Origin: the human T2T-CHM13v2.0 reference genome, Homo sapiens
Length of the DNA stretch: 64,000 nucleotides
Strand: one strand, 5' to 3'
NCBI RefSeq assembly: GCF_009914755.1
Contig: NC_060939.1
The translations under genes were made by a program, and so were the position numbers. Positions 4,332-4,884 of this stretch are shown piece by piece; within the stretch, counting starts at the first letter, position 1; each line of letters opens with the position of its first letter. The notes beneath the pieces were generated by a model. That model searched no databases, had not been told where the DNA came from, and saw only the letters and a list, made by a program, of their open reading frames with translations.

Positions 4332-4485
4332 CACTGAAATTTATCAAGTGAGTGTAGAAGAATGACTCTCGATGAAATTTTTCTATGTCCAATATGGTGG
4401 GCCCCTCAAGGCTACTTCTCAAGGTTTTCTTGGAACCACTTTTGTCTGCAATGAGGGACTCTAGCATGGTTCTCACCATGTAAAG
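4332..4485 (-). CDS. CYFIP1: CYFIP1 canonical exon 16 (16b, 154 nt, aa 559-610)
   Basis: [51 protein letters not shown](E); tccag| and GTG|gtaaga. Confidence 0.97.
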
Positions 4486-4556
4486 CTGGATTATCCAAGG
4501 AAACATTTGTGGGGGAGAAAATATACATGGTACATTAGTTATGCCAAACTCAAAAA

Positions 4557-4710
4557 GCCCATGAGAGAAGGACTGCTCCGCTACGCCCTGGTCGGGAGGG
4601 CCCCGCACCAGCTCCCCGAGGGGTCCGGGTGCCTGTCTACGCGGCCACGTTGCTGCTGCTTTGGGGAAAGAACAACTTGTAGCGGAGCAGTTCGCCTCCG
4701 TGCCATAAAC
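4557..4710 (-). other. Predicted intronic RNA stem-loop between exons 16a and 16b
   Basis: Perfect 13-bp inverted repeat at 4572-4584 and 4679-4691; outer extension GGAGG/CCUUC and GUUUAUGG/UCAUGGGC. Confidence 0.7.
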
Positions 4711-4736
4711 GTCAAGAGAAACAAATGATGTCTTAC

Positions 4737-4884
4737 CACCAAAGGTTAAAAGGGGTAGGTAGGTGCACGACTGCCTCAGAAACGTGTTAACCGCATGCAA
4801 GAGCCTCTCCATGCCCAGAGACTTGAGCTGCCTGAGCAGCTCGGCAGAGCCCAAGGACTCGGCCATGGTGCGCACCAGGTAGAG
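4737..4884 (-). CDS. CYFIP1: Candidate alternative exon 16a (148 nt), tandem paralog of exon 16, probably mutually exclusive
   Basis: [49 protein letters not shown](E) aligns with exon 16; branch point TGACTAAC, long pyrimidine tract, tctag| acceptor, GTG|gtaaga donor; same phases (0/1). Confidence 0.85.

What the first reader, a model, noticed from the sequence alone, without database searches (positions are those of the whole stretch)
4332..4884. Duplicated exon 16: candidate mutually exclusive exon pair in CYFIP1
Seen: 4737-4884 translates [49 protein letters not shown](E). This aligns end to end with canonical exon 16, [51 protein letters not shown](E), sharing LYxVRTMxESL, LxS and FxRxSxxYxxLxxF. 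Both exons start in phase 0, end in phase 1 (148 vs 154 nt) and use the donor GTG|gtaaga. Splicing both in (302 nt) or skipping both shifts the frame. Established: tandem homologous same-phase exons are the hallmark of mutually exclusive splicing. Inference: 16a swaps residues 559-609, just N-terminal of F626/M632 (Rac1 A site), giving a 2-aa shorter variant WRC subunit that may differ in regulation. I cannot tell whether 16a is already annotated as an internal exon.
Basis: partly seen in the sequence, partly recalled or inferred. Interest (0 to 1): 0.92.

Follow-up and report, generated by a model that had tools for sequence, protein, structure and literature searches.

The report
Known alternative exon pair in CYFIP1
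Human CYFIP1 carries two related copies of exon 16 that are used one at a time; the pair is real and old, but it is already annotated and listed in published catalogues, so it is not a discovery.

Summary
Window 4737-4884(-) ("16a", 49 codons) and 4332-4485(-) (exon 16, 51 codons) are homologous. They share phase, AG acceptors and the donor GTG|gtaaga. Including both or skipping both gives an early stop.

The interpretation, a mutually exclusive pair, is supported but not new. The gene table supplied with the finding lists 4737-4884 as an exon of other RefSeq transcripts. Martinez Gomez et al. 2021 (PMC8373072, supplement) list exactly these two peptides as CYFIP1 event 54: ENST00000612288 (1251 aa) versus ENST00000617928 (1253 aa). 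It is marked internal, proteomics-supported, shared with sharks/rays and present in Hatje et al. 2017. Hatje's tables show tissue-dependent use.

My searches add three points:
- 16a is kept at 49 codons without gaps in placentals, birds, crocodilians, a monitor lizard and frogs.
- The intron between the copies is not conserved as protein.
- Human CYFIP2 has no recognisable 16a.

I found no functional study of the 16a isoform. Verdict: already known, low interest.

The parts
4737..4884 (-). Alternative exon 16a of CYFIP1 (148 nt, 49 codons + 1 nt; phase 0 in, phase 1 out)
   Evidence: Translation. Splice sites. Listed as an exon of other RefSeq transcripts in the gene table of the finding. The peptide is identical to the 'translated exon' of ENST00000612288 in the PMC8373072 supplement. 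Conserved at 49 codons in tetrapods.
4332..4485 (-). Canonical exon 16 (154 nt, 51 codons + 1 nt), residues 559-609
   Evidence: It covers residues 559-609 of 3P8C_A. Pfam FragX_IP 52.5 bits. Identical 51/51 in all 14 placental models compared, and in the alligator and bird models printed.
4486..4736 (-). 251-nt intron between 16a and 16; open in the CYFIP1 frame in human, so that 4332-4884 reads as one 184-codon frame
   Evidence: open frame. (0 stops in frame; 1301 of 20000 composition-preserving shuffles are also open). (the intron-encoded peptide is poorly conserved and full of gaps, so it is not coding sequence under constraint).
4885..4930 (-). Acceptor region of 16a: ACTAAC (4930-4925, candidate branch point 46 nt upstream), a long pyrimidine tract, and AG
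   Evidence: The branch-point and QKI consensus motifs are recalled, not from a tool. Function is inferred.
4486..4539 (-). Acceptor region of exon 16: ACTAAT (4539-4534, candidate branch point 54 nt upstream), a weaker pyrimidine tract, and AG
   Evidence: In one search the last ~20 intron-encoded residues (..[18 protein letters not shown]) are much better conserved than the rest of the intron. That fits conserved splicing signals; this is inference.
5642..5789 (-). Constitutive exon 15 (ends in phase 0), upstream partner of both alternatives
   Evidence: Gene table in the finding. In database proteins..GPSSTQ is followed directly by 16a.
2581..2737 (-). Constitutive exon 17 (enters in phase 1), downstream partner of both alternatives
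   Evidence: Gene table. 16a is joined directly to [13 protein letters not shown] in 10 mammalian database proteins. The same join appears in duck, quail and frog proteins.
4332..5168 (-). Long exon of other RefSeq transcripts that runs through 16a, the intron and exon 16
   Evidence: Gene table in the finding; the codon just upstream of 16a in frame is TAG, so the CYFIP1 frame cannot be entered from upstream in such a transcript; the region is 58-63% G+C.

Best explanation
4737-4884 and 4332-4485 are an ancient tandem duplicate of one CYFIP1 exon, spliced in a mutually exclusive way. Exon 15 joins either 16a or 16, and either one joins exon 17. The products are a 1251-aa or a 1253-aa CYFIP1/Sra1 that differ only in residues 559-609.

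Exclusivity is enforced at least by reading frame. Each exon is 3n+1 nt, so including both or neither shifts the frame into an early stop far upstream of the last junctions. The expected result is nonsense-mediated decay (inferred).

Exon 16 is the ancestral-like, near-invariant and widely used copy. 16a is a faster-evolving but selectively maintained copy used in a tissue-dependent way.

The swap keeps the hydrophobic framework at both ends (LYxVRTMxESL ... FxRxSxxYxxLxxF). It replaces the middle, [19 protein letters not shown], with a shorter, different stretch. The equivalent residue S582 in the near-identical CYFIP2 exon is a reported phosphorylation site on the outer surface of the complex, and the stretch around it is replaced in 16a. 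The most likely functional effect is therefore a change in a surface regulatory or interaction patch of the WAVE regulatory complex. That last step is inference.
For: Shown here:
- Sequence, phase and splice sites.
- Homology.
- The pair is unique among the 17 coding exons of the window.
- Frame consequences of including or skipping both.

Conservation. The 16a peptide was found in predicted CYFIP1 proteins:
- 73 proteins with E<=0.01 among 114 candidates, all the named ones from placental mammals.
- 96 of 598 candidates, adding alligator, crocodile, birds and frogs.
- 93 of 377 candidates, adding Varanus and Melospiza.
- In the read-through models, 16a is 40-49/49 identical to human with 0 gap columns. 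The adjacent intron-encoded stretch is 7/14 to 83/84 identical with 0-73 gap columns.
- Papio shows 49/49 in 16a against 72/84 in the intron.

Substitution-type proteins, with 16a joined directly to exon 17: 10 of the 73. One search adds Anas acuta isoform X2 (exactly 1251 aa), Colinus and two frogs.

Literature:
- PMC8373072 supplement lists both peptides, transcript lengths 1251 and 1253, Proteomics=1, last common ancestor Gnathostomata and 'in Hatje et al'=1.
- PMC9741552 Table S2 is the list of 81 events with peptide support for both regions (passage) and includes CYFIP1.
- PMC5740500 Datasets EV5/EV6 give CYFIP1 cluster 1003: Kruskal-Wallis P 4.2e-16 across Human Protein Atlas tissues. 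One exon has Gini 0.07. The other has Gini 0.67 (peak duodenum) and 0.72 in ENCODE (colorectal carcinoma cells).
- CYFIP2 S582 is a brain phosphosite on the outer surface (PMC6549915 passages). Exon 16 of CYFIP1 and of CYFIP2 both contain KKTLRSSL.
Against: - 16a alone scores only 10.4 bits against Pfam FragX_IP (cut-off 23.3). phmmer of 16a against PDB sequences does not retrieve CYFIP1 at E<=10. Single-sequence homology is therefore weak and rests on end-to-end alignment, position and profile comparison.
- I found no fish or shark copy. The Gnathostomata age rests on the paper alone.
- 50 of the 73 database proteins use 16a in a read-through form (16a + intron + 16), not as a substitution. 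Automated models are thus dominated by intron retention.
- PMC9741552 Table S2 gives CYFIP1 no tissue-specificity flag at the protein level.
- Hatje's exon identifiers are not labelled with coordinates in the files I could read. Which identifier is 16a is inferred: the restricted one. Several of that paper's .xls supplements could not be opened.
- No junction reads, decay data or functional assays were available to me.
Confidence: 0.93

Rival explanations
1. 16a matters mainly as part of intron-retaining or internally initiated transcripts. These would be the 4332-4884 read-through, giving an in-frame 133-aa insertion (1386 aa), or the 4332-5168 first exon, giving an N-terminally truncated protein. 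On this view the clean substitution isoform is minor.
For: - 4332-4884 is one open frame of 184 codons.
- 50 of 73 database proteins are of this read-through type, for example the 1386-aa 'isoform X1' of many primates and the 1390-1391-aa forms of squirrels and marmots.
- RefSeq lists an exon 4332-5168 in other human transcripts (gene table).
Against: - The intron-encoded stretch is poorly conserved, with many gaps and frame changes.
- Several read-through models are flagged LOW QUALITY by their source.
- An open frame of this length arises in 6.5% of composition-preserving shuffles.
- 16a itself is kept at exactly 49 codons in all tetrapods seen, which only matters if it is spliced as an exon.
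- GENCODE annotates the 1251-aa substitution isoform, and peptides for the 16a region are reported.
Confidence: 0.05
2. 16a is a non-productive 'poison' exon or decaying pseudoexon whose inclusion only lowers CYFIP1 output.
For: Inclusion together with exon 16 gives an early stop. 16a evolves faster than exon 16: 40-49/49 against 51/51 identity among placentals.
Against: - Substituting 16a for 16 keeps the frame.
- There are no stops, frameshifts or length changes in placentals, birds, crocodilians, a lizard and frogs.
- 16a is far better conserved than the flanking intron.
- Peptide support is reported.
Confidence: 0.015
3. The resemblance between the two stretches is chance and 16a is an unrelated cassette exon.
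For: Identity is only 41% with 8 gap positions. 16a alone is below the Pfam cut-off.
Against: - The alignment is end to end with the same phase and the same donor.
- hhalign probability is 96.4%, E 1.4e-9.
- Both peptides map to the same Pfam profile positions.
- It is the only such pair among 17 exons.
- Non-primate 16a forms are closer to exon 16, for example LYMVRTM and ..LLNFG.
Confidence: 0.005

Closest known systems
[quoted passage not shown] 2021 (ENST00000612288 vs ENST00000617928); also CYFIP1 MXE cluster 1003 of Hatje et al. 2017
   Same: It is the same object. Both peptides are identical letter for letter, and the two exon starts are 405 nt apart as in the window.
   Different: Nothing about the feature itself differs.
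- a taxon list from protein databases;
- the contrast with the non-conserved intron;
- the frame analysis;
- the absence of a copy in human CYFIP2;
Classical vertebrate mutually exclusive exon pairs such as PKM exons 9/10 (PKM is listed next to CYFIP1 in Hatje's Dataset EV5)
   Same: Adjacent homologous exons of similar length and the same phase. One of the two is chosen, and usage depends on tissue.
   Different: For PKM the regulators and the functional difference between isoforms are known (recalled). For CYFIP1 16/16a I found neither in print. The PKM exons are recalled to be of equal length; here the exons differ by 6 nt.
[quoted passage not shown]
   Same: WASF3 is recalled to be another WAVE-complex subunit gene. 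Its event is internal, with gene age Bilateria and event age Gnathostomata in the same catalogue.
   Different: It is a different gene and protein region. I did not examine it.

Membership tests
Tandem-duplicated, mutually exclusively spliced exon pair (tandem exon duplication-derived substitution) | Two neighbouring exons between the same constitutive exons, with no other exon between them | tested here: met
   Exon 15 (5642-5789), 16a (4737-4884), 16 (4332-4485) and 17 (2581-2737) lie in that order on the minus strand (gene table).
Tandem-duplicated, mutually exclusively spliced exon pair (tandem exon duplication-derived substitution) | The two exons are homologous | tested here: met
   BLASTP E 2e-6. 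hhalign 96.4%, E 1.4e-9. Same Pfam profile positions. Only end-to-end pair among 17 exons.
Tandem-duplicated, mutually exclusively spliced exon pair (tandem exon duplication-derived substitution) | Same splice phase and similar length, so that either exon keeps the frame | tested here: met
   148 and 154 nt, both phase 0 in and phase 1 out. Both single-exon paths stay open through exons 17-18.
Tandem-duplicated, mutually exclusively spliced exon pair (tandem exon duplication-derived substitution) | Including both or neither is non-productive | tested here: met
   Including both gives a stop 219 nt after exon 15. Including neither gives a stop 60 nt into exon 17. Decay of such mRNAs is inferred, not shown.
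Tandem-duplicated, mutually exclusively spliced exon pair (tandem exon duplication-derived substitution) | Transcripts really use one or the other (junction evidence) | not testable with these tools
   No RNA-seq data here. Literature: the event is marked as present in Hatje et al.'s RNA-seq-validated set. GENCODE and RefSeq annotate the exon (gene table).
Tandem-duplicated, mutually exclusively spliced exon pair (tandem exon duplication-derived substitution) | The alternative exon is conserved as coding sequence in other species | tested here: met
   49 codons, no gaps or stops, in placentals, birds, crocodilians, Varanus and frogs. Fish and sharks were not found by my searches; they are claimed in PMC8373072.
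Tandem-duplicated, mutually exclusively spliced exon pair (tandem exon duplication-derived substitution) | Both alternative regions are detected as protein | not testable with these tools
   Literature only: Proteomics=1, and CYFIP1 in Table S2 of PMC9741552.
CYFIP / FragX_IP family (Pfam PF05994) | The segment matches the family profile above the curated cut-off | tested here: inconclusive
   Exon 16 alone scores 52.5 bits (cut-off 23.3). 16a alone scores 10.4 bits (human) or 12 bits (frog), at the same profile positions. Full-length proteins that carry 16a are annotated with PF05994.

The most novel reading that the evidence does not exclude
The 16a isoform builds a functionally distinct WAVE regulatory complex. 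It exchanges an outer-surface helix-loop-helix of CYFIP1 and removes the basic, serine-rich loop (KKTLRSS, S582/S583) of the canonical form. This would give a complex that escapes or changes a phospho- or partner-dependent control, used mainly in gut epithelium. In addition, the five residue changes fixed in simians (S12G, V31A, A34T, Y40C, P43L within 16a) would reflect a lineage-specific retuning. The catalogues do not address any of this, and I found no functional study.
Probability: 0.25. Interest if true: 0.5.

Novelty: already known. Interest (0 to 1): 0.15.

Why it matters
CYFIP1 lies in the 15q11.2 BP1-BP2 copy-number region and is recalled to be studied in autism, schizophrenia and cancer. 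It is the Rac1-sensing subunit of the WAVE regulatory complex. All five solved structures that contain this region use exon 16.

A conserved second version of residues 559-609 means that experiments with 'the' CYFIP1 cDNA ignore an isoform kept for at least the age of tetrapods. Variant interpretation should also treat 4737-4884 as coding.

That is a useful reminder, but not a discovery. The exon pair, its age, its peptide support and its tissue-dependent use are already in print and in the reference annotations. What remains open is the function of the 16a isoform and what controls the choice.

Tried and rejected
1. Structure of a 16a-type protein (collected). I used AlphaFold2 on the 1169-aa Spermophilus protein P0056 with a 15-row alignment of substitution-type proteins (A5). 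Mean pLDDT was 31.1 and pTM 0.23, with no residue above 50. The model is unusable, and I draw nothing from it about the fold of 16a.

2. Search for fish or shark 16a. The third word-based search and the profile search of 1.84 billion representatives (11 hits; the named ones are frog, deer and camel fragments, the rest unnamed) found none. The first depends on shared 5-residue words. The second holds one representative per 50% cluster. This is therefore no evidence of absence.

3. A 16a copy in CYFIP2.
   - A whole-genome search with human 16a found only its own locus.
   - A search with alligator 16a found 16a, exon 16 (E 5.1) and a chance hit on another chromosome.
   - In the 3118-nt CYFIP2 intron 15, the best same-strand hit is 11/30 identities at E 0.26. 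It lacks the LYxVRTMxESL and FLRQSxxY motifs. I rejected it as chance.

4. Competing RNA structures of the docking/selector kind. The inverted-repeat scan of 2500-5900 gave 29 pairs. The longest are pairs in 3013-3595, which I read as Alu copies (recalled, no repeat tool run). There is also one 20-nt, 85% complementary pair inside the 16a-16 intron (4565-4584 / 4679-4698). Nothing links each exon to a common site. I did not pursue this further.

6. PMC9399734 and the hippocampus-ageing preprint mention CYFIP1 and mutually exclusive exons in unrelated contexts. PMC6429586 lists Cyfip1 among Qki-dependent splicing targets in mouse without naming the exon. That is a lead only.

Full report
WHAT IS THERE

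- Both stretches follow an AG acceptor and end in GTG|gtaaga.
- They are 148 and 154 nt long. Both start in phase 0 and end in phase 1.
- 16a has a long pyrimidine tract and an ACTAAC 46 nt upstream of its acceptor.
- Exon 16 has a more interrupted tract and an ACTAAT 54 nt upstream. The consensus motifs are recalled, not from a tool.
- 16a is 58% G+C with GC3 0.80. Exon 16 is 42% G+C with GC3 0.53.

IS THE RESEMBLANCE REAL

- BLASTP aligns the two peptides end to end: 22/54 identities, E 2e-6 for the single comparison.
- A profile of nine tetrapod 16a peptides matches exon 16 with hhalign probability 96.4% and E 1.4e-9.
- Both map to positions 215-265/266 of the 886-position Pfam FragX_IP profile. 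Exon 16 scores 52.5 bits. 16a scores only 10.4 bits (human) or 12 bits (frog).
- As a chance control I ran all 17 coding exons of the window against the whole window with tblastn. Only exon 16 has an end-to-end non-self match (to 4884-4741, E 0.002). The next best non-self hit of any exon is a 17-residue local match at E 0.035.

Against this, phmmer of 16a alone against PDB sequences does not retrieve CYFIP1 at E<=10. Exon 16 is the family-like copy and 16a is the diverged one.

FRAME LOGIC

With exon 15 upstream and exons 17-18 downstream, either exon alone keeps the frame open.

- Both together (302 nt) give a stop 219 nt after exon 15.
- Neither gives a stop 60 nt into exon 17.

Mutual exclusivity is thus at least enforced by frame. 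Decay of the aberrant forms is inferred.

ALREADY KNOWN

The gene table attached to the finding lists 4737-4884 among 'exons of other transcripts' in RefSeq.

Martinez Gomez et al. 2021 (PMC8373072), supplementary table passages fetched:
- CYFIP1 is event 54, ENST00000617928 (1253 aa) versus ENST00000612288 (1251 aa).
- The type is 'Internal', Proteomics = 1, gene family age Bilateria.
- The 'translated exon' cells are letter for letter the two peptides.
- The two exon starts are 405 nt apart, as in the window.
- The methods passages say the ages were set by manual BLAST against fish, shark/ray and lamprey genomes.

Martinez-Gomez et al. 2022 (PMC9741552):
- CYFIP1 is in Table S2 (supplement part 1 read).
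- This table is the list of 81 events with peptide support for both alternative regions (passage).
- CYFIP1 has no tissue-specificity flag there.

Hatje et al. 2017 (PMC5740500):
- The main text does not mention CYFIP1.
- Dataset EV5 lists CYFIP1 cluster 1003 as differentially used across Human Protein Atlas tissues: Kruskal-Wallis P 4.2e-16, adjusted 1.4e-14.
- Dataset EV6 gives one exon a Gini index of 0.07 (top tissue oesophagus) and the other 0.67 (top tissue duodenum).
- In ENCODE cell lines the indices are 0.008 and 0.72. For both exons the group named is colorectal carcinoma cells, with values 51.9 and 430.7.
- The files I could read carry no coordinates, so taking the restricted exon to be 16a is my inference. 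Several .xls supplements could not be opened.

INDEPENDENT CONSERVATION EVIDENCE

The 16a peptide was searched against the protein collection, allowing longer proteins.

- 73 proteins with E<=0.01 among 114 candidates. All the named ones are CYFIP1 models of placental mammals (primates 98-100% identical; rodents, bats, horse, whales, armadillo and afrotherians 78-90%).
-, with a profile of seven mammalian 16a peptides: 96 of 598 candidates, adding alligator, crocodile, several birds and two frogs.
-, with a profile of frog, bird and crocodilian peptides: 93 of 377 candidates, adding Varanus and Melospiza.
- No fish or shark was found there or in the profile search of 1.84 billion representatives (11 hits). 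Both searches have known blind spots, so this does not contradict the published date.

In every species seen, 16a is 49 codons without gaps.

Database proteins use 16a in two ways. Counts are for the 73 proteins, classified.

- 10 join 16a directly to exon 17 (substitution type).
- 50 read 16a, the intron and exon 16 as one stretch.
- 13 are fragments or did not fit my pattern.

Outside mammals, the substitution type appears in Anas acuta isoform X2 (exactly 1251 aa), Colinus and frogs.

THE INTRON BETWEEN THE COPIES

In human, 4332-4884 is one open frame of 184 codons. This explains the many 1385-1392-aa 'isoform X1/X2' models.

- Across 14 placental read-through models, 16a is 40-49/49 identical to human with no gap columns, and exon 16 is 51/51 identical.
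- The intron-encoded part ranges from 83/84 (chimpanzee) to 7/14 identical, with up to 73 gap columns.
- Papio shows 49/49 in 16a against 72/84 in the intron.
- An open frame of that length occurs in 1301 of 20000 composition-preserving shuffles.

The intron is therefore not coding sequence under constraint, while 16a is under purifying selection. Only the last ~20 intron-encoded residues, upstream of exon 16, are well kept. That fits conserved branch-point and pyrimidine-tract signals (inference).

PARALOGUE

- The human assembly holds one match to 16a, its own.
- CYFIP2 exon 16 is 80% identical to CYFIP1 exon 16.
- Its 3118-nt intron 15 holds no recognisable 16a. The best same-strand hit is E 0.26 and lacks the signature motifs.

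WHAT THE SWAP DOES

Exon 16 is residues 559-609 of all five solved entries that contain this region: 3P8C, 4N78, 7USC, 7USD and 7USE. None carries 16a.

The ends of the segment keep their hydrophobic pattern. The middle differs: [19 protein letters not shown] against [15 protein letters not shown].

- By numbering, S582 and S583 are the two serines of KKTLRSS.
- A review reports S582 of CYFIP2 as a brain-specific phosphosite on the outer surface, of unknown role (PMC6549915 passages).
- In the cryo-EM preprint passages I read, the Rac1 A-site contacts are residues 91-108 and 176-215.
- F626 and M632 are A-site residues by mutagenesis (PMC5614565 passage).

A direct effect of the swap on Rac1 binding is thus not indicated. 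A change in a surface regulatory or interaction patch is the more likely effect (inference).

My attempt to model a 16a-type protein failed, with mean pLDDT 31.1.

I found no functional study of the isoform. The searches were 'CYFIP1' + 'mutually exclusive exons', 'ENST00000612288' and 'CYFIP1' + 'mutually exclusive' + 'splicing'. They cover only the held open-access library.

VERDICT

The feature is a known, annotated and catalogued tandem-duplicated exon substitution, and interest is low. What remains open is the function of the 16a isoform and the control of the choice.

Noticed in passing
window 4332-4884 (-): 16a, the 251-nt intron and exon 16 form one open frame of 184 codons. Many automated models in primates, squirrels, armadillo and whales annotate this as a 133-141-residue in-frame insertion (1385-1394 aa). 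The intron-encoded part is not conserved, so these look like intron-retention models rather than a conserved long isoform.
   Followed up: yes
window 4737-4884 (-), 16a residues 12, 31, 34, 40, 43: Human and the other catarrhines share G12, A31, T34, C40 and L43. Lemurs and most other placentals, including rodents, bats and whales, have S, V, A, Y and P (armadillo also has G12). The tamarin protein is 98% identical to human. So several changes were fixed early in simians, followed by 49/49 identity among catarrhines.
   Followed up: partly
window 4332-5168 (-): This is a RefSeq exon of other transcripts that runs through the whole pair. The in-frame codon just before 16a is TAG. The first in-frame ATG after it is codon 7 of 16a, in the context ACCATGG. 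Such transcripts could only encode an N-terminally truncated protein. The stretch 4486-5168 is 58% G+C with CpG o/e 0.59, against 0.36 for the window.
   Followed up: partly
window 4565-4584 and 4679-4698: A 20-nt inverted repeat, 85% complementary with 94 nt between the arms, lies inside the intron between 16a and 16. It could shorten the effective intron. This was not tested.
   Followed up: no
window 4799-4794 (in 16a), 4930-4925, 4539-4534, 4284-4279: There is one TGCATG (RBFOX-type word) inside 16a. ACTAAY words (branch-point or QKI-type) lie about 50 nt upstream of each of the two acceptors and in intron 16. Cyfip1 is listed among Qki-dependent splicing targets in mouse neural stem cells without the exon being named. 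The motif meanings are recalled.
   Followed up: no
window 3013-3595 (intron 16): Several long inverted-repeat pairs (up to 117 nt, 79% complementary) lie here. I read them as oppositely oriented Alu copies (recalled; no repeat tool run).
   Followed up: no
L006 6654-9771 (human CYFIP2 intron 15): No recognisable counterpart of 16a lies between CYFIP2 exons 15 and 16. CYFIP2 exon 16 is 80% identical to CYFIP1 exon 16.
   Followed up: yes
PMC8373072 supplementary table, event 234: WASF3 also carries an internal tandem exon duplication-derived substitution dated to Gnathostomata in the same catalogue (seen). WASF3 is recalled to be another WAVE-complex subunit gene.
   Followed up: no
proteins P0037, P0038, P0072, P0074-P0076, P0078-P0080, P0082, P0083, P0087: These are short predicted proteins from unnamed 'lgn' contigs. 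They start at the methionine inside 16a and run into the intron (the eight printed). They look like gene-caller output on vertebrate DNA present in those collections.
   Followed up: no
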